Shown piece by piece: positions 2,591 to 32,531 of a stretch of 64,000 nt of DNA. The translations under genes and the position numbers were made by a program. Below the pieces are notes generated by a model that did not search any database, was not told the DNA's origin, and saw only the letters and a program-made list of their open reading frames with translations. Numbering within the stretch: the stretch's first letter is position 1; each line of letters begins with the position of its first letter. The DNA is taken from NCBI GenBank assembly GCA_016176335.1, contig JACOXI010000004.1:146303-210302 (forward strand), read 5' to 3'. This stretch comes from Candidatus Daviesbacteria bacterium. GTDB lineage: Bacteria > Patescibacteriota > Microgenomatia > Daviesbacterales > UBA10151.

Positions 2591-2649
2591 ATTGCGTGAT
2601 TATTTGCGCGATTATTGCGCGACCAGCCTCGACTAGACGTCGAGTCTAG
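2591..2649 (+). promoter_or_regulatory. three tandem 11-12 bp repeats (TTGCGCGATTA-like), a CTAGAC-N5-GTCTAG palindrome and a TATAAT -10 box upstream of Fic
   Basis: Repeats at 2591-2602, 2603-2614 and 2615-2624. Palindrome at 2633-2649. TATAAT at 2662-2667. Confidence 0.5.
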
Positions 2650-2674: not shown

Positions 2675-3733
2675 ATGTTTGATCCTATTTACTCAATATC
2701 ATCTAAAACAATTTCCAATATGACCGAGATTGCGGAAATCAAAGCAATCGTGGAAAGATCCAAAGTACTACCTTTAAATGAGGCACAACTTCGGAGACAG
2801 GCAATTTTGCGGATGGCCCATACTTCTACTTCTATTGAAGGTAATAAACTGGCCCAATTTGAAGTGGGTAAGCTGATAGAAGGTAAAGCAGTACGTGCTC
2901 CCCAAAAAGATATTTTGGAGGTGGAAAGTTACTATAAAGCTTTAAAGATTTTGGAGCAAATGTCCAAATCAAGACATGATATTACCTTTGAGGACATACT
3001 GAACTTGCACAAAATGGTCATCCAAGGCCAAGTGGACAAAGAAAAAGTTGGTAAGTTCAGACCATCTGATGTGTATGTATTGGGTGATCTGGGCGACGGA
3101 CGCGAAATGTTAAGGTTTAAAGCTCCCCCTGCCACAGTAGTGCCTGATTTGATTTCCGATTTATTAAGCTGGTTGAAACAATCAAAAAAACAAGGCGTGC
3201 ACCCAATTATACGGGCAGGTATATTACATCTTGAGTTTGTCTCCATCCACCCCTTTACAGATGGAAATGGTAGGGTGGCGAGACTCTTGACACAACTCCT
3301 GCTTTACAGAGATGGTTGGGATTTTAGAAAAATTCTGGTTTTGGAGGATTACTATAATCGCGACCGATTGTCTTATTACAATGCGGAGCAAGAAGTTCAA
3401 GGTAAACACTACAAAAAAGGTGTTGATTTTACCTTCTGGCTGGAATATTTTACAACGGGCTTTTTGGTGGAGGCAAGAAAAGTATTGGAGCAAATCCAAT
3501 CTATTGGTTTTGGTAAGGTCAGCAAAAAATCTGATCAGATATTTTTGGATCCGGATGAGATTCAGATCATGGATTTTTTGGCAACCACCGGCAGAATTAC
3601 CTCTGATGATGCCCGAGACATTTTAAAAGTCGCCAAAAGAACCGCTCAATTAAAGCTGAAAAATCTGTCAGATAAAAGATTACTTAGGATAAACGGTAAA
3701 GGTCCCAGTACTTACTACACTATTGCGCGATAA
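2675..3733 (+). CDS. Fic family protein (Fic_N + Fic + C-terminal wHTH)
   Basis: HPFTDGNGRVARLL Fic motif. N-terminal TSTSIEGN inhibitory-helix-like motif. ATG at 2675 with an AAAGG SD. The track ORF from 2615 starts at TTG inside the repeat array. Confidence 0.85.
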   Translation: MFDPIYSISSKTISNMTEIAEIKAIVERSKVLPLNEAQLRRQAILRMAHTSTSIEGNKLAQFEVGKLIEGKAVRAPQKDILEVESYYKALKILEQMSKSRHDITFEDILNLHKMVIQGQVDKEKVGKFRPSDVYVLGDLGDGREMLRFKAPPATVVPDLISDLLSWLKQSKKQGVHPIIRAGILHLEFVSIHPFTDGNGRVARLLTQLLLYRDGWDFRKILVLEDYYNRDRLSYYNAEQEVQGKHYKKGVDFTFWLEYFTTGFLVEARKVLEQIQSIGFGKVSKKSDQIFLDPDEIQIMDFLATTGRITSDDARDILKVAKRTAQLKLKNLSDKRLLRINGKGPSTYYTIAR

Positions 3734-3759
3734 CTTGCGCGATTATTGCGCGATTGACA
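3722..3759 (+). promoter_or_regulatory. second array of three TTGCGCGAT(T/A) repeats overlapping the Fic stop codon, followed by a TTGACA -35-like box
   Basis: ATTGCGCGATAAC, TTGCGCGATTA and TTGCGCGATTG sit in tandem. TTGACA at 3754-3759, about 114 bp upstream of the RRM gene. Confidence 0.45.
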
Positions 3760-7108: not shown

Positions 7109-8236
7109 ATGGGTAAAATCTGGCCTTCGCTGACTATCTTAATCATGGTGGCGGCGATTTTAATCGTCTACTTGTTTGGACCCAAACAGGATACATTTAA
7201 GGCTTATGATGCAGATGGGGAAAAATATGCCTGGGATATTGCAGTAATAGCCTCCGGTTTGGAAGTTCCTTGGGATTTAGCTCCAACTGATGAGGGTGAG
7301 ATATTTATTACCGAAAGAGCTGGTAAGGTCAAGCTATTGAAAAAAGACGGCTCCATACAAACAATTACCAATTTTCCTCAGGTGGCCTCGGTTGGCGAAA
7401 GCGGCATGACAGGGTTAGCTTTGCATCCTGACTTTACCAACAACGGCTACATTTTTATCTATTATACCTATCGAAGTGGTGGGGAGACTTTAAACAGAGT
7501 CTCGAGGTTTACCTACAATAATAATAGATTGGCAGATGAACTGGTCATTTTGGATCAACTGCCAGGTGGTGTGATTCACAACGGGGGTAGAATGAGGTTT
7601 GGACCGGATCAAAAGCTGTGGATCCTCATAGGAGATGCATCCAGACCCCCATCTGCTCAAGATATTAAATCCTTATCAGGTAAGGTTTTAAGGATCAATG
7701 ATGACGGATCTTATCCGAGCGACAATCCTTTCAAAAACTCACCGGTTTTTTCCTTTGGTCACAGAAACCCGCAAGGATTGGATTTTCATCCTCTGACAGA
7801 ACAGCCAATAGCCACGGAACACGGAGAAACAGCTTATGATGAGATTAATCTGATTGAGGCCGGCAAAAACTACGGCTGGCCGGAGAATAAAAAGTGCTTT
7901 TCCGATAATCCCAGTTTTGAAAACCCCATCTTGTGCAGCGATGAATTTACCTGGGCTCCTTCAGGTGCGGCCTTTTTAGGCGCCGAGATTTGGAGGTTGA
8001 GAAATTCTTACTTTTTTGCAGGGCTTAGGGGTCAAATCCTAGAAAGAATAGACATAGTTGATGGTAAAGTAAAAGATAGGGAAACCATTATTAATAATGC
8101 TTACGGCAGACTGCGAGCCGTTGTCTCGGATAAAAAAGGCCACCTGTATGTTTCTACCTCCAATTTGGATGGCAGAGGAAATCCAAAACAGGGAGATGAC
8201 AAAATTTTAAAGCTTACTCCAAAAAAGATAGAGTAA
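7109..8236 (+). CDS. PQQ-dependent sugar dehydrogenase (soluble glucose/sorbosone dehydrogenase family)
   Basis: GLALHPDF..NGYIFIYYT, NHNGGRMRFGPD and GHRNPQG motifs. Confidence 0.85.
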   Translation: MGKIWPSLTILIMVAAILIVYLFGPKQDTFKAYDADGEKYAWDIAVIASGLEVPWDLAPTDEGEIFITERAGKVKLLKKDGSIQTITNFPQVASVGESGMTGLALHPDFTNNGYIFIYYTYRSGGETLNRVSRFTYNNNRLADELVILDQLPGGVIHNGGRMRFGPDQKLWILIGDASRPPSAQDIKSLSGKVLRINDDGSYPSDNPFKNSPVFSFGHRNPQGLDFHPLTEQPIATEHGETAYDEINLIEAGKNYGWPENKKCFSDNPSFENPILCSDEFTWAPSGAAFLGAEIWRLRNSYFFAGLRGQILERIDIVDGKVKDRETIINNAYGRLRAVVSDKKGHLYVSTSNLDGRGNPKQGDDKILKLTPKKIE

Positions 8237-15422: not shown

Positions 15423-16226
15423 ATGGGTATTTTAACTGTCTTGCCATGCTGTTTTATTTTTTTATCATTTATCAATTTTAATCCCCTGCTTTCCTTGGAA
15501 AGAACTTTTGCCCAACCTATTTACCAGCTTAAGAAAATATTTAACCCCCAAATAATTAAACCTAAAAATAGCTACACCATAGTTTTGGTAGGTGATTCCA
15601 TGACCGATTACCTGGGTTCTGCCGACTATTTGAAAGAAAACCTCAAAACTTATTATCCCCAAAAGCAAATAAACATAAAAAACTTTTCTGTCGGATCAAC
15701 CAACATCCTGACCCTGCCGGATCGTTTACAAAACCTGACCAATTATAATGGCAAAATTTCCCAAGCTATTCTAAACACGGACTTTGATTTGATACTGATC
15801 GAATCTTTTGGTCATAATCCCCTGTCTGAATTTTCCCAAAATGACGGACTTAAAAAGCATAATGAGGTTTTAGATCAGGCTCTGGTAATGATAAGGCAAA
15901 GGCAACCACAAGCCCGGGTCATCTTTTTGGCCACCATTGCTCCGCATCTGGACAGGTATGCTGAAGGGGTTGCCAACCTCACAACGGAAGTAAGAAGGGA
16001 GTGGGCAAAACAAAGAGCAGCCTATATCAAAAATCATATCGAATATGCCAAAAGGCATAAATTGCCTTTAATTAACATTTATGAAAAATCTTTGGATGGC
16101 GGGGGAGGAGGAAATATAGATTATATTAATACAGGAGATTTCATACACCCTTCCCCCACAGGCATTAAATTTATCAGCAGGGAGATTGCAGATTTTATAT
16201 TTAAGAAGCGGATATTGCCCTTGTAG
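15423..16226 (+). CDS. SGNH/GDSL family hydrolase
   Basis: N-terminal signal or TM. VLVGDSMTDY GDS block. C-terminal DxxH-like FIHPS. Confidence 0.65.
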   Translation: MGILTVLPCCFIFLSFINFNPLLSLERTFAQPIYQLKKIFNPQIIKPKNSYTIVLVGDSMTDYLGSADYLKENLKTYYPQKQINIKNFSVGSTNILTLPDRLQNLTNYNGKISQAILNTDFDLILIESFGHNPLSEFSQNDGLKKHNEVLDQALVMIRQRQPQARVIFLATIAPHLDRYAEGVANLTTEVRREWAKQRAAYIKNHIEYAKRHKLPLINIYEKSLDGGGGGNIDYINTGDFIHPSPTGIKFISREIADFIFKKRILPL

Positions 16227-17178
16227 ATTTTAAATAATTAATTAACTTTTTAAGCCCTTCTTCAAGCTCAACCTTAGGTTCCCAGCCCAAATTTTGTTTG
16301 GCTTTGGTGATATCAGGACATCTTCTTTGCGGATCATCTTGCGGCAAATCTTGAGTAAATTCCACGTCCGATGTGGAACCGACCAATTCTTTAACCTTTC
16401 GGGCCAGCTCTAAAATAGTAAATTCATTTGGATTTCCCAAATTATACACTTCCCCTTTTTCTCCCTTCTCCATGGCCAGTATTATTCCATCTATCATATC
16501 CGAGATATAACAAAAGGATCTAGTTTGCTTCCCGTCACCAAAAATTGGTAAGGGTTTATTTTGTAATGCAGCCATCACAAACTCAATCACTACCCTGCCG
16601 TCTCGGCCCATTCTGGGGCCATATGTATTAAAAATTCGGATAATTCTGCCATCCAATTCTTTAGACCTCACAAAAGCTGAAGTTATAGTTTCTCCAAATC
16701 TTTTGGATTCATCATAAACAGATCTGGGCCCGGTGGTTGAAACATTACCTCGGTATTCTTCTTTCTGGGGGTGTTCCTCCGGATCACCATACACTTCCGA
16801 GGTTGAGGCAAACAAAAATTTTGCACCGAGTTTAACTGCTATTTCGCAAAGCTTCCAGGTACCTAAAGTATTAACCCGCATAGTCTCAAAAGGGTGAGAT
16901 ATATAACTCTTGGAGTTATTCTCATTAGGGGATGCGGGAGAGGCCAGCTGATAAATACAATTGACATTTGACAATTCAGATTTGACATTTTCTGGAAACG
17001 CCTTAGATACATCATGATCTATAAATTGGAAATTTGGGTTATTTTTTAAATGTTTGACATTATCCAGGTTGCCTGTTAGCAAATTATCTACACATACAAT
17101 TTGGTTGCCTTGCTCGATTAACTTATCGCAAAGATGTGATCCCAAAAACCCTGCCCCACCAGCTACAATAATTTTCAT
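16201..17178 (-). CDS. UDP-glucuronate decarboxylase / UDP-xylose synthase (NAD-dependent epimerase/dehydratase)
   Basis: MKIIVAGGAGFLGSHL Rossmann motif and an NTYGPRM..DGRVV motif. The track ORF extends to 17364, but the conserved start is ATG at 17176-17178. Confidence 0.85.
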   Translation of the reverse strand: MKIIVAGGAGFLGSHLCDKLIEQGNQIVCVDNLLTGNLDNVKHLKNNPNFQFIDHDVSKAFPENVKSELSNVNCIYQLASPASPNENNSKSYISHPFETMRVNTLGTWKLCEIAVKLGAKFLFASTSEVYGDPEEHPQKEEYRGNVSTTGPRSVYDESKRFGETITSAFVRSKELDGRIIRIFNTYGPRMGRDGRVVIEFVMAALQNKPLPIFGDGKQTRSFCYISDMIDGIILAMEKGEKGEVYNLGNPNEFTILELARKVKELVGSTSDVEFTQDLPQDDPQRRCPDITKAKQNLGWEPKVELEEGLKKLINYLKSTRAISAS

Positions 17179-17188
17179 TAAGATACTA

Positions 17189-17233
17189 TTATATCTTAAA
17201 TCTTCTATCAGATAAATATGGATTGGGTTTACG
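17189..17233. repeat. 45-bp direct repeat, copy 1 (duplicate of the dinB 3' end: last 14 codons plus stop)
   Basis: 43 of 45 nt are identical to 18167-18211. Both differences are synonymous in the dinB frame. Confidence 0.8.
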
Positions 17234-18166
17234 TTTGCATGTTGACAAATAATGTAACAATACTTTAATACTAAGACAACAGATGCCTGCTGAACTCCCA
17301 CCGGAAACTTATAGAAGATTATCTCAAGCCGATTTTCAACATATCCAGGACGACGATACAACACCTTCTATACAACCTCTGCCAACAAGTGAAACTCCTG
17401 TCTTTGATGTTCGCACACTAAGTGTGTGGTATGGAGACCGTTTTGCATTAGACATCTCTGATGGGTTTCAAATTCCCCAGGACAGTATTACGGCAATAAT
17501 GGGTCCTTCCGGTTGTGGCAAGAGTACTTTTTTGCGTTGTTTAGATCGGTTAATAGACTTGACAGGAACGGCAGTAGTTAAGGGAAAGGTAGTATTTAAT
17601 AACGAAGATATTCTGGGAGAAAAAGTTGACACCGTCCTTCTTCGCAAAAGAATTGGAATGGTTTTCCAAAAACCAAATCCATTTCCCAAGTCCATTTATG
17701 ATAATGTAGCATTCGGTGCACGAATTTGGGGATACCGAGGAAACATGGATGATTGGGTAGAATCATGTTTAAGACGGGCAGTACTATGGGATGAAGTAAA
17801 AGATACTTTAGACAAAGGCGGTCTGGCCCTTTCCGGAGGACAGCAACAACGTCTGTGCATTGCTCGCGCACTAGCAGTTAAACCAGAGGTCTTGCTTATG
17901 GATGAACCATGCTCGGCACTTGATCCCATTGCTACTTATGGAATAGAGCAACTCATGATTCAATTAAAACAAGAACATACAGTCATACTTGTTACACATA
18001 ATGTGCAACAGGCTGCGCGTGTTTCTGATTATGTAGGTTTTTTCTTAGGAAATGGCCAAAAACCAGGTAGGTTAGTGGAATTCTCAACTAATGAAAAAAT
18101 TTTTACAAGCCCAAACCTTCAACAAACAGAGGCATATATAATGGGCAGATTTGGATAGGTTGCTTT
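17234..18166 (+). mobile_element. 933-bp insertion carrying a lone pstB with its own TTGACA-containing promoter region, bracketed by 45-bp direct repeats
   Basis: Direct repeats at 17189-17233 and 18167-18211. The insertion separates dinB from the UDP-xylose synthase gene, which would otherwise be 10 bp apart on the minus strand. Confidence 0.5.
17283..18158 (+). CDS. pstB: phosphate ABC transporter ATP-binding protein PstB (orphan; no pstSCA nearby)
   Basis: Walker A GPSGCGKST. IGMVFQKPNPFPKSIYDNVAFG. LSGGQQQRLCIARALAV. C-terminal ...TEAYIMGRFG, typical of PstB. Confidence 0.88.
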   Translation: MPAELPPETYRRLSQADFQHIQDDDTTPSIQPLPTSETPVFDVRTLSVWYGDRFALDISDGFQIPQDSITAIMGPSGCGKSTFLRCLDRLIDLTGTAVVKGKVVFNNEDILGEKVDTVLLRKRIGMVFQKPNPFPKSIYDNVAFGARIWGYRGNMDDWVESCLRRAVLWDEVKDTLDKGGLALSGGQQQRLCIARALAVKPEVLLMDEPCSALDPIATYGIEQLMIQLKQEHTVILVTHNVQQAARVSDYVGFFLGNGQKPGRLVEFSTNEKIFTSPNLQQTEAYIMGRFG

Positions 18167-18211
18167 TTATATTTTAAATCTTCTGTCAGATAAATATGGA
18201 TTGGGTTTACG
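18167..18211. repeat. 45-bp direct repeat, copy 2 (the genuine 3' end of dinB)
   Basis: See copy 1. Confidence 0.8.
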
Positions 18212-19390
18212 GCGGATATCCGCGGTTCCTAAAAGTATTCCTCTTTGCAGAGTAAATTCACCGTAGCGGTTATTTATGCTATCAATTGTTTGTATGACCT
18301 TTTCTTGCCGACTGATTTCAGGCAAAAGACTCAAATTTTGAGGATTTTGTGGCTTCAGATTAGAGATAGACACACCAATCATACGGATCTTACCTCCAGG
18401 CCATATCTGATTAAAAATTTTCCAAGCAGTCTTAAATATCTCCAGCCCGTCATTGATATATGGAATGGTTATCTGCATACTTTCTCCATTAAACACTTTC
18501 CCAGCTGATCGGTACCAACAATGGACAGTTTTACCAACCAATTTTTTCGCCCGCAATCTTCGGGCTATTAATTCTGCTAGCTTAAATAGAATTTGCTTAA
18601 TCTCCACCGAATCATCAGTGTCGTGGTCAATGGTGTGCCGGTGGCCTATTGATTTGACCTCTGTTTTTTGCCAAAAAGGAATAATTGGACTCTCATCTAT
18701 TCCCCTGGCCATGTTATACAAGATTTGACTGTAACTTTTAAATGAGGCTAAAAGCCACGGTAAAGGAACCTGGCGCAGAGTCTTGAAGTTAAATATCCCC
18801 ATGTTGTTAAGTCTTGTTTTAATCCTTGATCCTATGCCGCAGATTTGATCTAGGTTGATGGTATCCAATATCGCAATGGCTGCTTTTTGATCAGGAATAA
18901 CCACCAAACCATCAGGCTTTTGTAAAGATCCGGCCAGCTTGGCCATTAATTTGTTGTATGAAATCCCAATTGAACAAGTGATCCACTCACCTACTTCTTG
19001 CTGTATACGTTTTTTGATCTCTTGAGCCAATTCTACTGTACCCTGTAACCTGTTACCTGTAACCTCTAGAAACACTTCGTCAATTGAAAATACTTCCAAA
19101 TATGGGCTGTAGTCCTTTAAAATACCTAAAAAACGTTTAGTTACCTCCAGATACTTATCAGAATCCCCTTGAACCAAAATAATTTGCGGGCATAATTTTT
19201 TAGCCTCCCATATTTGCATTCCTGTTTTTACTCCAAACTGTTTAGCCTCAATAGAGGCTGCCCCAATTACTGTCCTTTCCATACGATCTCCACCAGTTAC
19301 CCCAATAGGTTTTCCTCTTAATCTGGGATTTGCCTGTTGTTCAACAGTGGCAAAATAGCTGTTAAAATCAATATGGATTATGCTTCGCAT
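18167..19390 (-). CDS. dinB: DNA polymerase IV (Y-family)
   Basis: IDFNSYFATVEQ N-terminal motif. Palm, thumb and little-finger architecture over 407 aa. Confidence 0.9.
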   Translation of the reverse strand: MRSIIHIDFNSYFATVEQQANPRLRGKPIGVTGGDRMERTVIGAASIEAKQFGVKTGMQIWEAKKLCPQIILVQGDSDKYLEVTKRFLGILKDYSPYLEVFSIDEVFLEVTGNRLQGTVELAQEIKKRIQQEVGEWITCSIGISYNKLMAKLAGSLQKPDGLVVIPDQKAAIAILDTINLDQICGIGSRIKTRLNNMGIFNFKTLRQVPLPWLLASFKSYSQILYNMARGIDESPIIPFWQKTEVKSIGHRHTIDHDTDDSVEIKQILFKLAELIARRLRAKKLVGKTVHCWYRSAGKVFNGESMQITIPYINDGLEIFKTAWKIFNQIWPGGKIRMIGVSISNLKPQNPQNLSLLPEISRQEKVIQTIDSINNRYGEFTLQRGILLGTADIRRKPNPYLSDRRFKI

Positions 19391-19461
19391 AAGTAGTCGT
19401 CAGCTTTCAGTCTTCAGCTATCAGATTTCTTGTCTGACGACTGACGTCTGATGACTGATAG
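19391..19461. promoter_or_regulatory. nested inverted repeats (AGTCGTCAG/CTGACGACT and AGCTATCAG/CTGATAGCT) immediately upstream of dinB
   Basis: Read directly from the sequence. Could be an operator or a terminator between the 80-aa ORF and dinB. Confidence 0.35.
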
Positions 19462-19704
19462 CTATTCTTCCTCTACTGCCTCTAATATCCACTTCATCTT
19501 ACTGGTATCCAACCTTAATCTATAAAAGTTCCCGCCAGATGATACTGAAAAGTGGTAAAAAGTATTGCTGCCATTTTTAGAGGTATGGACTAAATTAATT
19601 TTTTCCACCTTAATTTGCCTGCCATGCCAGAAGAAATAAGAAGGGTGAATTTGACTGCCTTGAAAAAACACCCAGACATTAACAGGCTCTTGAATTTCTA
19701 GCAT
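19462..19704 (-). CDS. hypothetical protein
   Basis: 80-aa ORF upstream of dinB on the same strand. Confidence 0.4.
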   Translation of the reverse strand: MLEIQEPVNVWVFFQGSQIHPSYFFWHGRQIKVEKINLVHTSKNGSNTFYHFSVSSGGNFYRLRLDTSKMKWILEAVEEE

Positions 19705-19751: not shown

Positions 19752-21705
19752 TTATCTACGAAGCAGTCTTTCGAGAAGCGATCTATGATCCTGAGAGGGT
19801 TTACCGCTCAAGTGTCCTATGAGTATTGGTTGGGAGGTCTCTACTCTTTGTATTCTTCTTGCCAAGATCTGATCTGGGGTTAAATGACCAAACTCCAGTT
19901 CAACCCAAATCATATCTTCCCTGATAGCCAAAGCTGTAGCTAAAGGGTTACTTTGAGCTCCCCCTTTAGGTTCTCTAATAATCTTGTCTATTAGACCTCT
20001 CTCCGCTAAGAAACTGGCTGTGGGTTTCATTCCTTCGGCTGTCCTGATGATATCCTCATAAGTAGGATTTTATATAATATTTGTGCTGCTGATCTGGGTT
20101 CTGCCACATACTCCTGGGCGCCTTCTAACATAGCCGCATAATCAGTTGTAAAATCCAAAGCTAGGTGTCCTCCGCTACCGCCTACCCCTATCAGGTAGCC
20201 ACTGGTAAAATAAGGAAAGTCCAATTGAGCTTTTAAACCGTAGGCAATCCCTCTAAATTGAGTAGCTAACTCATCCTCTATTTTAGGCCTGGCACCAAAA
20301 GTGTGAACAAATGTAGTAATTTGATACTTTAATCTTTCTGCATACGATATTACTGCTAACTCATATTGATAATCCCAGGCAGTAGGATTAGAGTGAGATT
20401 GATCTATGGAGATTTTTCCATCGGGTCTTTGAATATAGCTGGGTTGATTACCTATCACCATTCTCATCAACCTTTTTGAGAGTCTGGGATCATCAATATA
20501 GGCTAAAGCGGCTACTATAGGAGGATACCTTAGATATTTGCTATCGTCTCTCCCGCTTGCTACTTTACCTGAAAACAGAGGTACAAAACCATCAAAAGTA
20601 TGTTGCAGGATGTATAAAGTGTCTGGCCGCCTAAGATCCCCGCTTAAAACCTTATGCTGATCCCAGACTGTTTCTGGTTTAATTGGAATAAATACCATTG
20701 GTAAATCTGCTCTTCGGTGTGACCTTAATACTCTACCTGGTCTAAAAGGTACATGAAAACCATTATGATCAAAATTTATACCGGTAATTTCACGATGATG
20801 TCTCGGTTTAGCAGGGGGTTGATCGGCATTAACTATAATATCCAGCTTCCTTTGCAAATAATTCAAGAGCTCTGCCAGATTATTTAGAATAACATGCACA
20901 GCTCTATTGTTTTCAAAACTATTTTCCACTGTTTGAGCCTCGGCAGGTGGTGTTTTACTCTCATATTCGCCAATAACATCAGGACCGGCAAAACCCATAT
21001 TGCTATTTACCATACCAATTACCGAGTCTGCCATCGGTAATCCGCTGGCAGTCAGACCTCCCCAAACATTTCCCACCAGTACAAACACCAAGGGCTGGTT
21101 AGTTTCTTTCTTAAACTGGTTTAGAGCATGAACAGTTCTTTTCATTTCTCTTAAGCCGCTACTCCTTCTTGTTGTCTTTGTCCACCCGAAGCACAAACTA
21201 CAATCATAGGCACATTAGCTTGGATAGCCAAATTCTTAGCTCTAATAAATTTTTCTCCGGCTACCACCCCCGAAGTACCAGCCATAAACTCCCAATTAAA
21301 AATAATTCCCATAAAATTATTTTTACCCAAAGTACCAATCCCGTATGAGACTGCTTCATTTCTACCTTTTTGGCGTTCCTTAGCCATTTTCTGCTCATAG
21401 GTCTCAACTGTTCCATCAGGTAATACTCTTTTTAAGCCTACGGGATCTTTGATAACTACTAAGTCACCATCTAATTCACGGAGATGAACAGCTCTCCTAA
21501 AAGACTGCATAAAGGCTGGAACATCAATTTTCGGCCTCCCTTCCAAAAAATGTAAATTTCTAAACAAGGCTAGAGAAGCATCCCCCGGATGATCGCCAAT
21601 AATATCAGGGGGAATGTTGGGTCCGTCAGCTTCCGGGTTTGTTGCACTCATTTTAGGGGGTATCTTAACAGAAAAAATTCTGCTAGTAAATGATGGCTCT
21701 TGCAT
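19752..21705 (-). pseudogene. fused acetyl-CoA carboxylase carboxyltransferase (AccD-like beta domain + AccA-like alpha domain), interrupted by two frameshifts
   Basis: Three consecutive ORFs in different frames: 21705-21151, 21196-20027 and 20030-19752. Beta-subunit motifs FMAGTSGVVAGEK..CASGG.RQQEG. Alpha-like GVGGSGGHLALDF.. and C-terminal REPKGGAQSNP. A 1-nt shift near 21155 restores QEGVAALREMK. Confidence 0.6.
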
Positions 21706-21753: not shown

Positions 21754-22626
21754 ATGCCGGCACAGTTTGAATTAGAACCATCCGAAGCTGCCTTAGAAAA
21801 AAGAGCCTCCCGCTCTAATGTAATGATTCACGGAACAATCGGTAATGAATTTGCCGGGAAAGTAGCAATAGTTACAGGTGCCAGTAAATTAGAACCAATG
21901 GGTATTGGGGCTGCTACAGCAATAGAGCTTGCCAGGAGAGGTTTGAGAGCTGTCACTATAACTTCCACTCTGGAAAGTGAATCTCGAGCTAAAGAAACTG
22001 CCAAAAGAATTGCTCAAGAGGGAACCTACGTTTTATGGATGGGGGTAGACCATCGCCAAACAGTCGATAATATAGCAGTTGTTGAAGAAACTGTTGGAAA
22101 GTTTGGAGAAGTAAATTACTTAGTTGGCAATGCGGGCAGAATGCACATTAAACCATTACTTCGGGAAACTCATGAAGCCATTGATGATGATCTTAGTTTG
22201 ATGTTAGGGGCTCATGCCCATATGTCCAAAGCTTTAATTGATATTTGTCGACGCACTAAGACCTTAGATAGATTACATGGGATTGTTTTTGTGGGAAGTG
22301 TAATTGGGGATTTAGGAAGCATAGGTCAGATTGGTTACGGGACAGCTAAATCAGGGATAGATGGATTAGTAAGAAACCTTTATTTAGAACTGGGACATTA
22401 CGGAACTCGTGTCAATGCCATTCATCCTGGTTTTGTAGCTACAGAAATGACACAAGCTTTGCAGGGTGAACAGGGAGAAGCTTTTGCCCAAAAAAGGATT
22501 GTCCTAGGAAGAATGGCCCAACCTGAGGAAATTGCTAAAACCGTAGCATTTTTATTAGGACCAGATGCAAGCTATATTACTGGAACTTCACTGGTAGTTG
22601 ATGGTGGATTAAAATTTTTTGGATAA
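21754..22626 (+). CDS. SDR family oxidoreductase (FabG-like ketoreductase)
   Basis: KVAIVTGAS..GIG. NAG. YGTAKSG (Y-x3-K). PG. IHPGFVAT. Confidence 0.8.
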   Translation: MPAQFELEPSEAALEKRASRSNVMIHGTIGNEFAGKVAIVTGASKLEPMGIGAATAIELARRGLRAVTITSTLESESRAKETAKRIAQEGTYVLWMGVDHRQTVDNIAVVEETVGKFGEVNYLVGNAGRMHIKPLLRETHEAIDDDLSLMLGAHAHMSKALIDICRRTKTLDRLHGIVFVGSVIGDLGSIGQIGYGTAKSGIDGLVRNLYLELGHYGTRVNAIHPGFVATEMTQALQGEQGEAFAQKRIVLGRMAQPEEIAKTVAFLLGPDASYITGTSLVVDGGLKFFG

Positions 22627-22628
22627 AT

Positions 22629-24236
22629 ATGGAATCAGATAGAGAATTAACATCAAACAACTTACCTCTGGCTGGAAAAACTGCATTCGTTACAGGAGGA
22701 AATCGTGATATTGGTGCAGGAACAATTCGAGCATTGGCTCGTCTTGGAATAAGTAGAGTAGGCAGTATTCATCGAGATGAAAGAAAGGCAAAACGTGAGC
22801 CAGATGTTGTTAATTATGCTGCTGCACATGGGACAGATGTTAAATTTACTCTCGGAGATATTACGACACCTGAAGGTATACAAACAATTGCAAATATGAC
22901 AAACACTGAACTTGGAGGAAATTTAGATATATTAGTATTAAATACTTCTGGCCAAGGAAGAGATGTAAATGTAGTTGCTGCGAATGCAATTGTTGACGCT
23001 CTTTTACCCAAAATGAATCCGGGTGGAACAATTATGTTCAGACAAAGTGTTCCGGGGCATTATTATGAAGAACTTAGGCAACAAGGACGAGAAGGAGAAA
23101 TTCCAGAGTTTTATAGAGGAATTGCAGAAGTAAAAGGTGAAGGAGAGAAAACACTTCGTGCAAGAATTCCTGAGTTTAATGCCAAAGGGATAAGATTTTT
23201 AGTAGATTGTCCCCCTGAGGTTGCGGGTACAGGTAATATTAGATTATTTACCCGATTCGATAGAAGTTTTTCTGAAAAACACCGAGCACTTCTAGCATCT
23301 TTAGGACTTCCTCATATTATTCCTATCGAAGCAGTTGCACATGTATCTTCTCAAATGCTTGCAAATTCAAATCTGCCAACTGGGTATATAGAACTTTACA
23401 GAGAAACTCGAGATGTGCGCGGACCGCTTTCAAGATTCTATACGGATAGAACAACATATGCAGATCAAGTTAATGACAGATATAATTTTGCCACATTTAC
23501 AGTTCCAGAAACACACACTGATCGAAGTAATGAACCAGCGAATATAGAAGCCATCGAGTTTACGCAGGAAGGTGCAGTTGCCACAACTCACATAACAAAA
23601 GCTCATGCAAAAGATCATTTTAGAGATGAAGTTGGTTTAAATCCTCTTCCTTTGCATAAACAGGTACGAACAGTAGTAGAAGTTGCAGGTGCGATAGTAA
23701 ATAATGGGTCAGATTCACCAAAACGAGTAAGACTTTCTTCATTTGATGGAATACAGTGCATGGGAGCAATTATTCCAGGAACAACAATGGAAACAAGAAT
23801 TACTGTGACGGATCGAAACGATACTTCAATGACCTTTGATGTCCAAATTTCGCGCGATGGAAAACCAGTCACTTCAATGCAACAAGTAACTTGTATTGTA
23901 GAAGATGCCCCATCCTTGGAACAGGAATTACGGGAAAAGTTCTTATTAGAGGATCAAATTATAGAAACAGCAGCGCAAATGGCAGGAATGTTATCTTGGA
24001 ATGCAAATCAAGGGCAGGATTTTTCCCCGCTATTTTTATCAGTGGGTTCGGGCAGATTTTTTGAAAGAGCAAAGGCTGGAGATATCCTAACAGGATTAAT
24101 TAACACCAGACCAACAAGGAGAGGGTCAGACTCAGATGTGCTAATGATAACTGATGGAAGAGAATTAGCAGATATAAGGAGAATTAACTCTATCGTTGTA
24201 AGAACTAATGTTGTCAGAAGAATTTTAGGAATTTAA
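22629..24236 (+). CDS. two-domain protein: atypical SDR-like N-terminal domain + C-terminal hotdog (MaoC/dehydratase-like) domain
   Basis: N-terminal GKTAFVTGGNRDIGAGTIRALA. C-terminal about 130 aa with a hotdog-like pattern. 535 aa. Confidence 0.6.
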   Translation: MESDRELTSNNLPLAGKTAFVTGGNRDIGAGTIRALARLGISRVGSIHRDERKAKREPDVVNYAAAHGTDVKFTLGDITTPEGIQTIANMTNTELGGNLDILVLNTSGQGRDVNVVAANAIVDALLPKMNPGGTIMFRQSVPGHYYEELRQQGREGEIPEFYRGIAEVKGEGEKTLRARIPEFNAKGIRFLVDCPPEVAGTGNIRLFTRFDRSFSEKHRALLASLGLPHIIPIEAVAHVSSQMLANSNLPTGYIELYRETRDVRGPLSRFYTDRTTYADQVNDRYNFATFTVPETHTDRSNEPANIEAIEFTQEGAVATTHITKAHAKDHFRDEVGLNPLPLHKQVRTVVEVAGAIVNNGSDSPKRVRLSSFDGIQCMGAIIPGTTMETRITVTDRNDTSMTFDVQISRDGKPVTSMQQVTCIVEDAPSLEQELREKFLLEDQIIETAAQMAGMLSWNANQGQDFSPLFLSVGSGRFFERAKAGDILTGLINTRPTRRGSDSDVLMITDGRELADIRRINSIVVRTNVVRRILGI

Positions 24237-24261
24237 TTTTGAAAGAAGTTATATAAAAAAT

Positions 24262-25632
24262 ATGTCAGGATATGTTGAATCATCTACATATTGGGAATCT
24301 GCCAGAGCCAGAGGTGTGACTTTAAACAGAACTCCCGAAACTCGGGTAGTTGTAACCGGGATAGAGGCTATGACTCCTTTAGGATATCTCTCGGAAACCA
24401 TGCAAGCATTCCGGGAAAGTCGATCAGGGGTAATTTCCAGGGAAGTTGGAAATTGTCATACCAGACTTCAGGCCCCTCTTCCTGAATTATTTGATCCGAT
24501 GAGTGAGCTTACTAGAGAAGAGAGAAAAATGATGGGCTTTTTAGGTGCAATGGAGGTTGTGATTGCTCGAAGAGCCGGCAAAGCAGCAGGAGTAATTGGA
24601 GAAAATGGCCGATTATTGGATAGGGTAGCTCATAAAAATAGGGTTGGGGCATGGATTGGCAGCGGTATTGCAGAAGCTCCATATTTAATTGAGGTGGATA
24701 AACACTTGCATCGGGAAGTTAATGGTGTGGTAGATCCGGTGGCAAACTCCCGCCGTATTTCACCGACCTTAGCAGTCAGAGTTTTTCCAGAAGAACCAAA
24801 TGGAGATGTAGCAAGATTACTTGGTTTATCAGGAGAAAGTGGTAACACTGTCGAAGCTTGTGCTACAGGCGCTTCCAATATATATCATGGATATAAGTCA
24901 ATCTTAAGTGGAGAAAATGATATTGTTTTTGTCGGAGGTTTTGAAGAAACTCTTAGGGAGCATGCCAGAATGGTTCTTGGTATTTTTGCCGGTATTAACG
25001 CTCTATCTACCAGAAACGATAGCCCGGAAACTGCCAGTAGGCCATTTGATAGTGGTAGGGATGGTTTTGTGGCAGCTTCCGGTGGAGCATTGTTAGTTTT
25101 AGAGGGATTAAATCACGCATTAAGAAGGGAGGCCCCAATTTTGGCTGAAGTTTTAGGAGCAGCCAAATCAATTGATGGGCATGCTAAGACCGAATCACTC
25201 CCACTTCGGATTGCAGATACTATTGCCCAAGCACTTTATGATCCTTCTACAGGAGGACTTTGGAAACCTGACGGGTTTTTTGCTCATGCTACTTCCACCC
25301 AAATAGGCGATAAAAATGAAGCTGAAGCTTTTCAGCTTGTTTTTGGTGATGAAACTGGAGATATTCCGGTTACTGCCATTAAATCGTTTATAGGGCATAC
25401 TTTAGGAGGAGCTGGAGCTGTTAATGCTGCCGTAGCAATACAATCTTTACTGGATGGAGAAATTCCTCATATTCTGAACTTACAAAACCCCGATCCTGAA
25501 ATTACTAACGCAGTAAAGATGACCTTTGTCAGAAATCATTTTATGAAACATCCGATGAGAACTGCATTAGCAGTGGCTTATGGTTTTGGCGGGTATAATT
25601 GTGCATTACTACTTGGGAGGTATATACCTTAA
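24262..25632 (+). CDS. beta-ketoacyl-(ACP) synthase (KAS I/II-like, thiolase fold)
   Basis: Active-site VEACATGASN. Catalytic His motifs FAHATSTQIGD and GHTLGGAGA. ASRPFD. Confidence 0.88.
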   Translation: MSGYVESSTYWESARARGVTLNRTPETRVVVTGIEAMTPLGYLSETMQAFRESRSGVISREVGNCHTRLQAPLPELFDPMSELTREERKMMGFLGAMEVVIARRAGKAAGVIGENGRLLDRVAHKNRVGAWIGSGIAEAPYLIEVDKHLHREVNGVVDPVANSRRISPTLAVRVFPEEPNGDVARLLGLSGESGNTVEACATGASNIYHGYKSILSGENDIVFVGGFEETLREHARMVLGIFAGINALSTRNDSPETASRPFDSGRDGFVAASGGALLVLEGLNHALRREAPILAEVLGAAKSIDGHAKTESLPLRIADTIAQALYDPSTGGLWKPDGFFAHATSTQIGDKNEAEAFQLVFGDETGDIPVTAIKSFIGHTLGGAGAVNAAVAIQSLLDGEIPHILNLQNPDPEITNAVKMTFVRNHFMKHPMRTALAVAYGFGGYNCALLLGRYIP

Positions 25633-25634
25633 TT

Positions 25635-26501
25635 ATGGCAGCCGAAGATAACGCCTCTAGAATTAATCATCCTTTCCAAGATGGCAGAATGAATTTTACT
25701 GCTTTCTCCCGCTGTCTCGAATACCGTAGAGAGGTTGCAGAGTTAATGTTGGAAGCTTTGCCTTATCTTCCAGAAAGATTTACTCAGGTTGATATTGGTG
25801 CAGGGAATGGTCTAGGCACTCAAGTAACAAAAGGAATGACAGAAGTATTTTTACGGAGGGCAGCAGTCTACGGTATAGATCCTGACCCGTATGCCATAGC
25901 GCAAGCTTCCAAAGATACCCCATCTTCTGAAAGGTGTGAAATTGCTTTCATAGAAGGATTTGGTCAGGACATTGAAACTTTAGTGGCAGGCAGAATTCCT
26001 AAGGAAGGGGCTGATATGGTATCTATATTAGATGCAGTGCATGAATTTCCACCTGATGCTCAGTTCCCCATTATACAAGCTGGGGCACGGGTTTTAAGAC
26101 CTGGTGGAATCTTTGTGATGAATAGTACTTTTACCTCAATTGCTACGGAGGAAAACCCGGCTGCATGGGGTTTCCCGGCAGTAAAAGCAGCATTAAAGTT
26201 TGGAGGAAGGAAGGCCAAACAACCAGGTCTTCTTCAGAGGCCTCCGGAAGAATATACACAAATGCTTCGAAACACGGGCTTAGAGGTAATTTATTATCAG
26301 GTTGTAGGTGTAACATTACCAACCAGTGCAATGGTAGCTATTTGTCAGTATCCGGGATTTGTAGAAGGTGTCAGAAAAAGTTTTGTATTTGATAATGAGC
26401 CAACCTTGGAGCAGTTAAGCGAGGAGCTTCAGATACGTTATGGGAAATCTAGGCCGCTGCCGCGTAAATGGGTTCGATGGATTGGTCAAAAACCTGCTTA
26501 A
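25635..26501 (+). CDS. class I SAM-dependent methyltransferase
   Basis: VDIGAGNGLGT motif I. The start is placed at ATG 25635 just after the KAS stop. The track ORF 25599 overlaps the KAS. Confidence 0.7.
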   Translation: MAAEDNASRINHPFQDGRMNFTAFSRCLEYRREVAELMLEALPYLPERFTQVDIGAGNGLGTQVTKGMTEVFLRRAAVYGIDPDPYAIAQASKDTPSSERCEIAFIEGFGQDIETLVAGRIPKEGADMVSILDAVHEFPPDAQFPIIQAGARVLRPGGIFVMNSTFTSIATEENPAAWGFPAVKAALKFGGRKAKQPGLLQRPPEEYTQMLRNTGLEVIYYQVVGVTLPTSAMVAICQYPGFVEGVRKSFVFDNEPTLEQLSEELQIRYGKSRPLPRKWVRWIGQKPA

Positions 26502-30391: not shown

Positions 30392-30769
30392 ATGGAATAT
30401 CTATCAATAATACCGGCTACAGCTTTAGGCTTTTTAACTTTGAAGGCCACTACCCACCCTCAATCACGGATCAGACAGAAACTGCCCAACATTAAAACCA
30501 GAAGAGTTCAGGTTTTCCCGGTCATCCGTTTTTACTTTTTCGGAAGAGTTATTCACCTGCATCACTGGATAAATTTTTCCATACTGTTAATCCTTTCAAT
30601 TTTTGTCACCGGCAATATCCTGGATTATGTGGTGACTAAAGGTTTACTTTTGGGAGGGATTATTCAAGGTCTAAGCTTGCCCGGAGAACACAGAAAAATT
30701 GTCTACAAAGATTTCTCCATTGACAGGTTGACCTCCACCACCCCACCCCTGCCCAGAAGACGATTATGA
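30392..30769 (+). CDS. hypothetical membrane protein
   Basis: 125 aa with 3 predicted TM helices. Precedes the efflux operon. Confidence 0.45.
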   Translation: MEYLSIIPATALGFLTLKATTHPQSRIRQKLPNIKTRRVQVFPVIRFYFFGRVIHLHHWINFSILLILSIFVTGNILDYVVTKGLLLGGIIQGLSLPGEHRKIVYKDFSIDRLTSTTPPLPRRRL

Positions 30770-31857
30770 GTATCTCCAATCTTCTAAAATCCGGTAAGAA
30801 AAGGGTCATTATTCCAGTGGCAATAATAATTCTTGTCATTTTTGGTTTTAATTTTTTTGCTCCCAAAAAACGGCTTCCTTTGCAATTTACCCAAGTTATC
30901 AGGCGTGACATAAAAGAAATTGTTGCTTCGTCAGGCACTTTAACAGGCAAGGATGTAGTCAATCTAAAATTCAAATCTTCCGGTAGAATCGCCTATATAA
31001 ATGTTAAGGCAGGAGATCGGGTTTTTGCCTACCAGACTATCGCCGGTTTGGATACAAAACTTTTGTCAATAGATTTACAGCAAGCACAAAATACTTTAAG
31101 AGATAAGCAGGCTAGCGCAGAAAAAGTGGAGGATGATGTCAAAGATCACAGTAAGGATGAGACCTACACCCAACGCTCAACCAGAACCACGGCCCAGGTG
31201 GCAAGGGATAATGCCGTAGATGCTGTAAAAGAGGCCCAGCAAGCTTTGCTTGACGCAAATATATACACACCAATTGCCGGAATTGTGACCCAGGCCCCCA
31301 TAACTTTCGGTCAATATGTTTCCTCGTCCGACCTGATTGCCCAAGTGGCGGATATTTCTTCAATTTATTTTGAAACTGATGTTTTGGAGGCGGATATCAG
31401 CAAGATTTCTTTAGGGCTCAAGGCAGAAATAACCCTGGATGCCTTTGGTGAAAAAGTATTCACTGGTGTTGTTGACCAAATTATCCCCCAAGCCAAAACT
31501 ACCTCATCCGGGGCCACAGTTGTTCCGGTCAAAGTGAAATTAGACCCAACCAAAATGACCTTTATAAACGGGCTTTCCGGCCAAGCCTCAGTCATTGTAA
31601 AAACATCCCAAAACGTCCTAACTTTACCGAGGGAGGCTGTCAGGGATGATAATACGGTATTTATACAAAAAAATGGCAGTGTCTCTCCTGCAAAAGTTGT
31701 CCCGGGTATTTATTCTGATACTGAAGTGGAAATAAAAGAAGGATTGGAGGATAAGGAAAAAGTACTGCTTAACCCTCCTGCAAATGACACCGGGACCCGG
31801 AATCGATCCCCGCTGCAAGGAATTTTTCGCTTCTTTGGAGGCTCAAGAGGCAGATGA
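30766..31857 (+). CDS. efflux transporter periplasmic adaptor subunit (HlyD/MacA family)
   Basis: N-terminal TM, biotinyl/lipoyl-like hairpin, coiled coil and beta-barrel. Overlaps the downstream ABC ATPase by 4 nt. Confidence 0.8.
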   Translation: MSISNLLKSGKKRVIIPVAIIILVIFGFNFFAPKKRLPLQFTQVIRRDIKEIVASSGTLTGKDVVNLKFKSSGRIAYINVKAGDRVFAYQTIAGLDTKLLSIDLQQAQNTLRDKQASAEKVEDDVKDHSKDETYTQRSTRTTAQVARDNAVDAVKEAQQALLDANIYTPIAGIVTQAPITFGQYVSSSDLIAQVADISSIYFETDVLEADISKISLGLKAEITLDAFGEKVFTGVVDQIIPQAKTTSSGATVVPVKVKLDPTKMTFINGLSGQASVIVKTSQNVLTLPREAVRDDNTVFIQKNGSVSPAKVVPGIYSDTEVEIKEGLEDKEKVLLNPPANDTGTRNRSPLQGIFRFFGGSRGR

Positions 31858-32531
31858 GTTTAATAATAAAGCTGTCTAAAATAAATAAAGTCTACAAGAC
31901 CGGGGAAATTTCCTTTCTGGCTTTAAAAAATATTAACCTTGAGGTCAAAAAAGGAGAATTCATTGCCATCATAGGTGCTTCAGGTTCTGGTAAATCTACC
32001 TTAATGAACATCATAGGCCTCCTGGATCACCCTACCTCCGGAACATATATTCTGGACGGGCAGGACAGTTCGGATTTTGGGGAGGACTATTTGGCGAAAA
32101 TCAGGAACGAAAAAATCGGCTTCGTCTTTCAGTCATTTAACCTGCTTGCCAGAACTTCTGCCTGGGATAATGTTGCCCTACCCTTAATTTATGCGGGAAT
32201 ATCAAGAAGTCAAAGACTGCAAAGAGCAAGGGAAGTTTTGGAACGGGTAGGGCTGGGTGACAAATTAGAGTCCCACCCGAATCAGCTTTCAGGGGGACAG
32301 CAGCAAAAGGTGGCTATTGCCAGAGCTTTGGTTAATAATCCGGAACTCATTTTGGCAGATGAGCCAACAGGCAATCTGGATTCTAAATCAGGCGGGGAAA
32401 TCATGAATCTTTTTGAAAAGCTTTCCAGTGAGGGTAAAACCATTATTATGATTACTCATGAAGCAACAATTGCCCGCCATGCAAAAAGGGTTATCAGGCT
32501 AAAAGATGGGGGTATCCAATGGAGACAATAA
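31854..32531 (+). CDS. ABC transporter ATP-binding protein (MacB/LolD/FtsE-like)
   Basis: Walker [10 protein letters not shown]. Signature [15 protein letters not shown]. Walker [12 protein letters not shown]. Confidence 0.9.

What the first reader, a model, noticed from the sequence alone, without database searches (positions are those of the whole stretch)
17189..18211. Orphan pstB inserted between dinB and the UDP-xylose synthase gene, flanked by 45-bp direct repeats that each encode the dinB C-terminus
Seen directly: 17189-17233 and 18167-18211 are 43/45 identical. Copy 2 is the genuine end of dinB (...RRKPNPYLSDRRFKI, stop). Copy 1 sits 10 bp upstream of the UDP-xylose synthase start codon, and both mismatches are synonymous in the dinB frame. 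The 933 bp in between carry one complete PstB ATPase gene on the opposite strand with its own TTGACA box, and no pstS, pstC or pstA partner.

Inference: a former dinB-uxs operon was split by site-specific integration of a small element that regenerated the 3' end of dinB, as integrative elements that target gene 3' ends do. The integrase has been lost, or this is a non-autonomous cassette. An isolated PstB is unusual and may work as a regulatory or accessory ATPase rather than as a transporter.
Basis: partly seen in the sequence, partly recalled or inferred. Interest (0 to 1): 0.68.

Follow-up and report, generated by a model that had tools for sequence, protein, structure and literature searches.

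The report
Single pstB gene inserted behind dinB
In an uncultured Daviesbacteria (CPR) genome, one phosphate-transporter ATPase gene was dropped between two normally adjacent genes, and the event copied the last 14 codons of the DNA-polymerase IV gene so that it stayed intact; this is a clean small case of gene gain whose mechanism is not settled.

Summary
Positions 17189-17233 and 18167-18211 are a 43/45 direct repeat, unique in the window. Both copies encode RKPNPYLSDRRFKI-stop on the minus strand. Between them lie 933 bp holding one intact pstB.

In about 60 related Daviesbacteria loci the order orf80-dinB-UXS is conserved. About 20 loci, including the two closest relatives (DinB 80% identical), have dinB 7-47 nt from UXS. 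None has pstB. So this is a lineage-specific insertion into an old junction.

No pstS, pstC, pstA, phoU, integrase or transposase lies in the 64 kb. The best PstB homologue among 5.8 billion proteins is only 64% identical, yet the gene's GC and codon use match the host. The donor is therefore unknown and probably another low-GC organism.

One other locus (L070) has an independent dinB-tail duplication, about 38 nt, around a different cargo (a toxin-antitoxin-like pair). About 15 loci carry other unrelated inserts without repeats.

Best reading: a single crossover inside the conserved dinB tail between the chromosome and a small DNA carrying pstB plus a dinB-tail copy. The enzyme is unknown. 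Site-specific integration is plausible but unproven. A regulatory role for PstB is speculation.

The parts
18167..18211 (-). Repeat copy 2. It is the working 3' end of dinB: the last 14 codons plus TAA, encoding RKPNPYLSDRRFKI*.
   Evidence: The C-terminal motif N[PS][FY][LM]x[DSE][RK]RF[KR][LIVMF] closes 133 of 160 DinB orthologues.
17189..17233 (-). Repeat copy 1. It is a stranded copy of the dinB tail (43/45 identical, same peptide plus stop). It keeps the ancestral spacing of 10 nt to the UXS start codon.
   Evidence: Relatives have 7-47 nt between the dinB stop and the UXS ATG.
17234..18166 (.). Inserted segment of 933 bp: 49 nt upstream region, pstB, and 8 nt downstream.
   Evidence: Absent from all 59 related dinB loci. 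GC 0.42, within the host range.
17283..18158 (+). pstB, a phosphate ABC transporter ATP-binding protein of 291 aa. It is intact and convergent with dinB, with the two stop codons 8 nt apart.
   Evidence: TIGR00972 at 338 bits against a cutoff of 343. Full-length alignment to PstB of PDB 9k3x. Best homologue is no more than 64% identical.
17242..17247 (+). TTGACA hexamer 35 nt upstream of the pstB ATG. It is a possible -35 box, followed after 17 nt by TTAATA.
   Evidence: Read from the sequence. The consensus scan did not call it a promoter.
18167..19390 (-). dinB (DNA polymerase IV), 407 aa.
   Evidence: Pfam IMS, IMS_HHH_1 and IMS_C; NCBIfam DNA polymerase IV. Orthologues are 60-80% identical in Daviesbacteria MAGs.
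16201..17178 (-). UDP-glucuronate decarboxylase (UDP-xylose synthase), 325 aa. It is the ancestral downstream neighbour of dinB.
   Evidence: Synteny.
19462..19704 (-). Conserved 80-aa ORF that always precedes dinB in relatives. It marks the conserved orf80-dinB-UXS block.
   Evidence: tblastn hits directly upstream of dinB in every related locus. No Pfam family.

Best explanation
Shown: in the ancestor of this Daviesbacteria lineage, orf80, dinB and UXS lay head to tail, with about 10 nt between the dinB stop and the UXS start. A 933-bp segment carrying only pstB and its short upstream region now sits between them. It is bracketed by two copies of the last 45 nt of dinB.

Inferred mechanism: a small DNA molecule carried pstB next to a copy of a Daviesbacteria dinB tail. 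This was either a circular intermediate or a cassette-like element. It recombined with the chromosome by one crossover inside the conserved 45-bp tail (Campbell-type integration). One hybrid tail stayed attached to dinB, so DinB keeps its conserved C-terminus. The other tail stayed attached to the old 10-nt spacer and UXS.

If the crossover fell between the two mismatches, the pre-insertion site read ...GAC AGA AGA TTT AAG ATA TAA and the incoming copy read ...GAT AGA AGA TTT AAA ATA TAA.

The catalyst could be a recombinase acting in trans or RecA. It is not identified. The direct repeats (26 nt of perfect identity) would also allow scar-free loss of the cassette.

pstB is most likely an ordinary PstB ATPase. 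Whether it has PstSCA partners elsewhere in the genome is unknown.
For: - Repeat geometry and coding sense.
- An uninterrupted dinB-UXS junction in about 20 related loci, including the closest relatives, whose DinB is 80% identical and whose gap is 9 or 15 nt. L045 has the same wider synteny: dinB-UXS-SGNH-x-purF.
- pstB is absent from all 59 related loci.
- Similarity ends exactly at the dinB stop codon. That is expected if the incoming DNA shared only dinB-derived sequence with the target.
- Both differences between the copies are synonymous third-position transitions, as expected if both copies descend from working dinB genes.
- A second, independent case exists in L070. There the proximal part of the stranded copy encodes RMPNPFLADV... 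against RRPNPFLADR... in the attached copy. The differences are clustered multi-nucleotide changes and match tail variants seen in other lineages. This points to two sources rather than in-place decay.
- The arrangement is reproduced in six independent assemblies.
- pstB has host-like composition, so its source was a low-GC organism like the host, not the high-GC nearest homologues.
Against: - No integrase, transposase or Xer-type gene was found among ORFs of at least 120 aa in the 64 kb.
- No free element, attP or donor was found. The 26-mer of the repeat has 0 hits in the JGI metagenomes and IMG/VR. No PstB is more than 64% identical anywhere.
- The element-side flanks in the window and in L070 share no similarity, so nothing points to a common recombination module.
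- The repeat shows no significant hairpin or dyad.
- 15 other inserts at the same junction show no repeat remnant.
- With only two mismatches, the 'both synonymous' argument is weak, roughly p = 0.06 by my own estimate.
- A 45-bp homology is short for RecA-driven single crossover (my own knowledge).
Confidence: 0.5

Rival explanations
1. Homology-facilitated illegitimate recombination. Linear DNA was taken up from a closely related strain in which pstB already lay convergent to dinB. It paired with the recipient through dinB homology. Its other end, upstream of pstB, joined illegitimately 45 nt before the recipient's dinB stop. The recipient tail was left stranded in front of UXS.
For: - It explains the exact end of the repeat at the stop codon, the synonymous differences between the copies, the lack of any integrase, and the host-like composition of pstB.
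- The dinB-UXS junction varies between lineages: about 15 loci carry at least 9 unrelated cargos. That fits exchange through recombination in conserved flanking genes.
Against: - It needs a donor that already has pstB next to dinB, which only moves the question back one step.
- No such donor exists in the databases.
- The illegitimate joint should fall at a random position, yet the proximal edge of the duplication in L070 lies within one codon of the edge in the window.
Confidence: 0.25
2. Target duplication made at the moment of insertion. This could be a staggered double-strand break about 45 nt apart that was filled in, or a replicative template switch that copied pstB from elsewhere and returned 45 nt upstream. 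The two copies began identical and have since gained two substitutions.
For: - Unrelated cargo and unrelated insert ends in the window and in L070, yet a similar duplicated span.
- No recombinase genes nearby.
- pstB has host-like codon usage, which would fit a copy from the same genome.
Against: - 45 bp is far longer than known transposon target duplications (my own knowledge).
- The insert has no terminal inverted repeats.
- In L070 the two copies differ by clustered 2-3-nt changes that give another natural tail variant. That is unlike random decay of a once-identical copy.
- If pstB were an internal copy, a native pstB lineage would exist in Daviesbacteria, but no PstB above 64% identity exists.
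Confidence: 0.12
3. No insertion at all. Either pstB is native at this position and the relatives lost it, or the arrangement is a chimeric assembly.
For: pstB composition matches the host.
Against: - All 59 related loci lack pstB, and no Daviesbacteria-like PstB orthologue exists among 5.8 billion proteins.
- The stranded tail copy, with the ancestral 10-nt spacing to UXS, is a direct footprint of insertion.
- Six independent assemblies agree base for base.
Confidence: 0.03

Closest known systems
Prophage e14 / phage 21 integrated in the 3' end of icd in E. coli
   Same: Integration occurs inside the 3' end of a protein-coding gene. The element supplies a substitute 3' end, and the displaced original end is left as a short pseudo-copy at the far side. 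This gives direct attL/attR repeats with a few, mostly silent, differences (PMC6379469, read).
   Different: - e14 is a 15-kb prophage with its own integrase, and the duplicated icd piece is 163 bp.
- Here the insert is 933 bp, carries one metabolic gene and has no recombinase.
- The host is a CPR bacterium.
Cis-mobilizable elements (CIMEs) of ICE families
   Same: They are flanked by attL/attR direct repeats at a gene's 3' end but lack integration and transfer genes. They rely on a recombinase supplied in trans (definition in PMC6323972, read).
   Different: - CIMEs are decayed ICEs or IMEs of several kb whose att sites are recognised by a known ICE integrase.
- Here no cognate ICE, integrase or att family is known, and the unit is a single gene with its own upstream region.
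Xer-dependent integrating elements (IMEX) and pdif modules of Acinetobacter plasmids (from my own knowledge, not checked in the library)
   Same: They are small integrase-less modules, often one gene or a toxin-antitoxin pair. They are bounded by short recombination sites and moved by a host-encoded tyrosine recombinase.
   Different: - Their sites are 28-bp dif-like sequences with an 11-6-11 architecture. pdif sites usually flank a module in inverted orientation.
- The 45-nt repeat here is coding sequence of dinB and has no dif-like dyad.
Integron gene cassettes
   Same: Single-ORF unit with very short flanks.
   Different: - Integron cassettes carry an attC hairpin with RYYYAAC/GTTRRRY cores and are usually promoterless.
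- The repeat here does not fold (z between -0.9 and +0.2), has no such cores, and no intI is present.
Homology-facilitated illegitimate recombination during natural transformation (from my own knowledge)
   Same: Foreign DNA enters next to a conserved gene through one homologous anchor, with no mobile-element genes. It can leave short duplications or deletions at the illegitimate joint.
   Different: - It has not been described as producing the same duplicated span in independent events.
- It has not been studied in CPR bacteria.

Membership tests
PstB (phosphate ABC transporter ATPase, TIGR00972) | Full-length match to the equivalog model at or above its cutoff | tested here: inconclusive
   338.3 bits against a cutoff of 343.2, covering profile positions 2-248 of 248. 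This is just below the trusted cutoff. The next-best non-PstB family scores 130 bits.
PstB (phosphate ABC transporter ATPase, TIGR00972) | ABC ATPase motifs and the PstB-specific C-terminal ...TE.YI.GRFG | tested here: met
   The alignment to PstB of PDB 9k3x covers residues 41-291. It shows GPSGCGKST, MVFQKPNPFP, LSGGQQQRL, LLMDEPCSALDP, VTHN and TEAYIMGRFG.
Pst transporter operon (pstSCAB-phoU) | pstB adjacent to pstS, pstC, pstA and usually phoU | tested here: not met
   The neighbours are UXS and dinB. tblastn with PstS, PstC, PstA and PhoU from three operons finds nothing in the 64 kb. Pfam scans of window ORFs of at least 120 aa show no BPD_transp_1, PBP_like_2 or PhoU. The nearest homologues all sit in full operons. 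The rest of the genome could not be searched.
Site-specific integrative element (att-flanked, gene 3'-end-targeting) | Direct repeats (attL/attR) that include the 3' end of the target gene and regenerate it | tested here: met
Site-specific integrative element (att-flanked, gene 3'-end-targeting) | Integrase (tyrosine or serine recombinase) in the element or nearby | tested here: not met
   The insert holds only pstB. No recombinase domain was found in window ORFs of at least 120 aa.
Site-specific integrative element (att-flanked, gene 3'-end-targeting) | Empty attB in related genomes | tested here: met
   An uninterrupted dinB-UXS junction in about 20 loci, including L045, L046 and L047. No empty site was seen in the same species.
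Site-specific integrative element (att-flanked, gene 3'-end-targeting) | Same att used repeatedly, or an excised or circular form or attP observed | tested here: inconclusive
   One more dinB-tail duplication exists, with different cargo (L070). The element arms are unrelated. No attP was found in IMG/VR or the JGI metagenomes. Four Logan contigs stop at the same base inside copy 2, which hints at a coexisting variant, but this could not be resolved.
CIME (cis-mobilizable element) | attL and attR retained, no integration or transfer genes, cognate ICE or integrase known | tested here: inconclusive
   The first two features are met. No cognate element or integrase could be identified.
Integron cassette | attC site that folds as a hairpin with conserved core sites | tested here: not met
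   Folding of both copies on both strands gives -2 to -3.2 kcal/mol with z-scores from -0.9 to +0.2. No RYYYAAC/GTTRRRY pair was seen by reading the sequence.
Transposon / insertion sequence | Terminal inverted repeats, a transposase, and a short (2-15 bp) target duplication | tested here: not met
   No inverted repeats at the insert ends, no transposase, and a 45-bp duplication.

The most novel reading that the evidence does not exclude
The conserved last ~14 codons of Daviesbacteria dinB may serve as an attachment site for a class of minimal cassettes with no integrase. Each would carry one gene or a toxin-antitoxin pair, plus a mimic of the dinB tail as its only 'att'. A host or helper recombinase would insert and excise them in trans. 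The many unrelated inserts at the dinB-UXS junction in other lineages would then be older events of the same kind whose stranded tail copy has decayed.
Probability: 0.12. Interest if true: 0.7.

Novelty: new variant of a known kind. Interest (0 to 1): 0.4.

Why it matters
Almost nothing is known about how genes move into the small genomes of CPR bacteria, which cannot be cultured or manipulated. This locus is an unusually clean snapshot of one gene gain. The ancestral junction is known from many relatives. The insert is a single intact gene. The footprint, a duplicated gene tail, is still 96% identical.

If the footprint reflects a recombinase acting on the dinB tail, it would define a new minimal cassette system and a testable 45-bp site. 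If it reflects uptake of DNA and one-ended recombination, it documents that route in CPR bacteria.

An unpartnered pstB would also bear on phosphate uptake in these organisms, but only once the whole genome has been checked.

Tried and rejected
- Genome-wide repeat: rejected. There are only two copies in 64 kb.
- Assembly artefact: rejected. Six independent assemblies are identical.
- Integron attC or other hairpin site: rejected. The repeat does not fold.
- Known RNA in the region: none. Rfam finds only tRNAs elsewhere in the window.
- Phage or plasmid origin of pstB: no support. The best hits are 53% and 60.5% identical, and ordinary pstB genes score the same.
- Recent import from the nearest homologues: rejected. 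They have GC3 of 63-93% against 29% here.
- Remnant of a pstSCAB operon: rejected. Only 49 nt lie between copy 1 and the pstB start, and PstB aligns from residue 6 to homologues of the same length.
- Search for the same species with an empty site, or for an attP: the 26-mer scans of the JGI metagenomes and IMG/VR found nothing. The exact DinB and UXS look-ups returned only contigs that carry pstB.
- Decayed tail copies in 15 other insert-bearing loci: none above the shuffle background.
- Third tail duplication among DinB proteins with odd C-termini (P0182, P0215, P0195): none found. They show other kinds of tail disruption instead.
- Longer context for L070: no close relative exists; the next DinB is 75% identical.
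- Literature on pstB in CPR or Patescibacteria: nothing useful.

Correction: ORF coordinates printed by my scripts are one base too low. They were corrected.

Full report
**1. The observation.**

The two 45-nt segments, 17189-17233 and 18167-18211, differ at two positions. They are the only matches in the window even when 3 mismatches are allowed, and no match appears in 100 shuffles.

Read on the minus strand, both give RKPNPYLSDRRFKI followed by TAA. The differences are GAC/GAT and AAA/AAG, both synonymous.

- Copy 2 closes the 407-aa DinB ORF at 18167-19390.
- Copy 1 is followed after 10 nt by the ATG of a 325-aa UDP-glucuronate decarboxylase at 16201-17178, which scores 322 bits against human UXS1.
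- Similarity ends exactly at the stop codon on one side and at the CGT codon on the other.

The 933 bp between the copies contain one ORF, 17283-18158 on the plus strand. It lies 49 nt from copy 1 and 8 nt from copy 2. It is a PstB:
- TIGR00972 scores 338 bits against a cutoff of 343.
- It aligns end to end with PstB of solved PstSCAB complexes, and all ATPase motifs are intact.

The TTGACA at 17242-17247 is real, but no full consensus promoter is called there.

The arrangement is not an assembly error. Six Logan contigs from two run series are 100% identical to the window, and one of them spans purF to dinB.

**2. Who carries it, and what relatives look like.**

DinB relatives in the species-representative genomes are Candidatus Daviesbacteria / Microgenomates MAGs at 60-76% identity. 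The protein databases add Logan contigs at 80% identity.

I examined 59 related loci (575 kb). Some are the same contig held in two collections.
- The 80-aa ORF always precedes dinB.
- UXS follows dinB in most loci.
- About 20 loci have only 7-47 nt between the dinB stop and the UXS start. These include the closest relatives: L045 with a 9-nt gap and L046/L047 with 15 nt. L045 also shares the wider order dinB-UXS-SGNH-x-purF.
- No related locus has pstB.

**3. The junction is variable, but the repeat is rare.**

About 15 loci carry something else between dinB and UXS:
- pyruvate kinase in several loci, once together with a PEP-utilising enzyme;
- a ClpB-like AAA ATPase;
- two different methyltransferases;
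- a YGGT membrane protein;
- a 213-217-aa protein of unknown function;
- several small ORFs.

The inserts lie on either strand. None shows a remnant of the dinB tail in front of UXS above the shuffle background.

A self-comparison of all loci turned up one further case, L070, a 1786-nt JGI contig whose DinB is 68% identical to the window's. Its layout is as follows:
- dinB ends ...RRRPNPFLADRRFMVQ*.
- Two small same-strand ORFs follow: an 88-aa protein with a weak BrnT-toxin match, and a 71-aa DUF2283 protein.
- Next comes a stranded tail copy encoding RMPNPFLADVRFKL.
- The repeat is about 38 nt at 32/38 identity, with a 20-nt perfect run and a spacing of 546 nt.

The proximal edge of this duplication lies within one codon of the edge in the window. 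The sequences on the insert side of the repeats are unrelated in the two cases.

The differences between the two L070 copies are clustered (GA to TG, CAG to TGT). They yield a tail variant, RM..., that other lineages use naturally. This suggests that the two copies came from two dinB alleles rather than from decay of an identical duplicate.

**4. Where pstB came from.**

Among 5.8 billion proteins, the only close hit is the same protein (MBI2018740.1, Candidatus Daviesbacteria, on a 219-kb contig). Every other hit is 64% identical or less. The named ones are Chloroflexota and cyanobacteria.
- Three of these homologues, when inspected, sit in canonical pstS-pstC-pstA-pstB-phoU operons of high-GC organisms.
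- Phage and plasmid collections give at most 53% and 60.5% identity. About 60% is thus simply the background similarity between any two PstB proteins.

DinB orthologues at 70-80% identity are abundant, yet no PstB comes even close to that level. Daviesbacteria relatives evidently lack an orthologous pstB.

However, pstB has a GC of 0.416, a GC3 of 0.291 and a codon-usage score 0.7 sd below the window mean, the same score as dinB. The repeat has diverged by only 4%, whereas the same 45 nt differ by about 17% between the window and L045. The insertion is therefore much younger than the split from known relatives, which leaves too little time for composition to drift. The source must have been a low-GC organism or mobile DNA of similar composition that is not yet sampled.

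**5. Is pstB an orphan?**

Within the 64 kb, yes.
- tblastn with PstS, PstC, PstA and PhoU from three operons finds nothing.
- Pfam scans of the window ORFs of at least 120 aa show no Pst partners. The only other ABC system found is a MacB/HlyD-type exporter at 30766-33700.

The protein has every feature of a transporter subunit. A regulatory role is not indicated by anything I could test.

**6. Mechanism.**

The same scans show no integrase, resolvase or transposase in the window. The repeat does not fold, and the insert has no terminal inverted repeats.

The footprint has a working gene tail on one side and a displaced copy next to the old downstream flank on the other. This is the classic result of a single crossover between the chromosome and a molecule that carries a copy of the gene's end. 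Phage e14 at icd is the textbook case (PMC6379469). Integrase-less derivatives with retained attL/attR are known as CIMEs (PMC6323972).

I therefore favour a Campbell-type event within the 45-bp tail (0.5) and leave the enzyme open. The rivals are:
- One-ended homologous plus illegitimate recombination of DNA from a near relative (0.25). It accounts equally well for the edge at the stop codon and for the silent differences. It needs a donor that already has pstB beside dinB, and it predicts random proximal edges.
- A fill-in or template-switch duplication (0.12). It fits the unrelated cargos, but it fits poorly with the allele-like differences in L070 and with the absence of any native pstB lineage.
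- Native arrangement or assembly artefact (0.03).

**7. An unresolved hint.**

Four of the six Logan contigs end at exactly window position 18203, which is repeat position 37 of copy 2.

With the 31-mers used for those assemblies, that is where a path would stop if another sequence in the sample shared repeat positions 8-38 of copy 2 but differed at position 7. A hybrid repeat, such as an empty site, would have that property.

However, the same contigs cross copy 1 without a break. Other breaks occur nearby, around 19328-19357 and at 19437, and may reflect ordinary strain variation. I treat this as a lead only.

**8. Novelty and score.**

This is a real and tidy gene-gain event with a known type of footprint. 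It is unusual in three respects:
- its minimal size, one gene;
- the lack of any recombinase;
- the host group.

One independent parallel exists (L070). It is a new variant of a known kind. It would be of moderate interest to people who study CPR genome dynamics and of low interest otherwise.

Noticed in passing
window 2577-2622 and 3708-3753: A second single-gene unit is bracketed by ~46-nt direct repeats (80% identical, 1131 nt apart). The gene is a Fic-domain protein (PF02661, HPFTDGNGRVARL). The downstream copy overlaps its stop codon (...YYTIAR*). The upstream copy reads ...THRTIA* in the same frame, like a leftover gene tail. The repeats contain 2-3 tandem TTGCGCGAT(T/A)A motifs, which occur essentially only at this locus in the window.
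   Followed up: partly
L070 1157-1194 and 1703-1740 (JGI Ga0105164_10074693): This is an independent duplication of the dinB tail, around a BrnT-like / DUF2283 gene pair. Here dinB ends RRFMVQ* instead of RRFKL*. The contig ends 46 nt after the stranded copy, so the downstream gene is unseen.
   Followed up: yes
L081 7264-7296, L082 2018-2051, L020 about 7282-7310: Short palindromic insertions of about 29-34 nt sit inside the dinB tail of other Daviesbacteria. They create a premature stop (DRRWTVIHR*, or FLRSEGSQALLI*) and leave the original ...RRFKL* codons just downstream and out of use. The L081 insert folds as a hairpin (z = -2.7). In L020 a related 27-nt palindromic element also occurs elsewhere inside dinB and after UXS.
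   Followed up: partly
window 19391-19461: A 71-nt spacer between the 80-aa ORF and dinB holds an imperfect palindrome (AGCTATCAG...CTGATAGCT, GTCGTCAG...CTGACGAC). It folds at -12.2 kcal/mol with z = -2.1. In several relatives (for example L012, L018, L019, L027) these two genes abut or overlap. Logan contigs also break around here.
   Followed up: partly
window 18203 (ends of L002, L003, L004, L006): Four independent Logan contigs stop at the same base inside repeat copy 2. This implies a branch in the assembly graph caused by a coexisting sequence that differs at repeat position 7. Whether that sequence is an empty site, a strain SNP or something else could not be determined.
   Followed up: partly
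window 19752-21705: An acetyl-CoA carboxylase carboxyltransferase (AccD/AccA-like) is split into three consecutive overlapping ORFs of 184, 389/372 and 92 aa. The split is the same in independent Logan assemblies. Next to it lie SDR, ketosynthase and methyltransferase genes (21754-26501). tblastn with the acc ORFs and the first SDR found no syntenic match upstream of orf80-dinB in the related loci, so this cluster may be an acquired island. A fatty-acid-type cluster is unusual for a CPR genome.
   Followed up: no
L031 6350-6381 and 7883-7914: A 32-nt direct repeat (94% identical) brackets about 1.5 kb holding two ORFs of 287 aa and 135 aa (neither was scanned against Pfam). The repeat resembles the 3' part of a structured RNA gene, but the contig ends before this can be checked. 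In the same locus the dinB tail is replaced (…QRRPQ*) and abuts a tRNA-Arg.
   Followed up: partly
L022 1966-2068 and 3501-3603: A 103-nt direct repeat (99% identical) holds a terminator-like hairpin and a TTGACA promoter-like box. Each copy lies just upstream of a tRNA gene on the minus strand, and the two copies bracket about 1.4 kb of small ORFs.
   Followed up: no
window 42044-43102: A second Fic-domain gene (PF02661) is present in the window. It lacks the TTGCGCGAT repeat motif.
   Followed up: no
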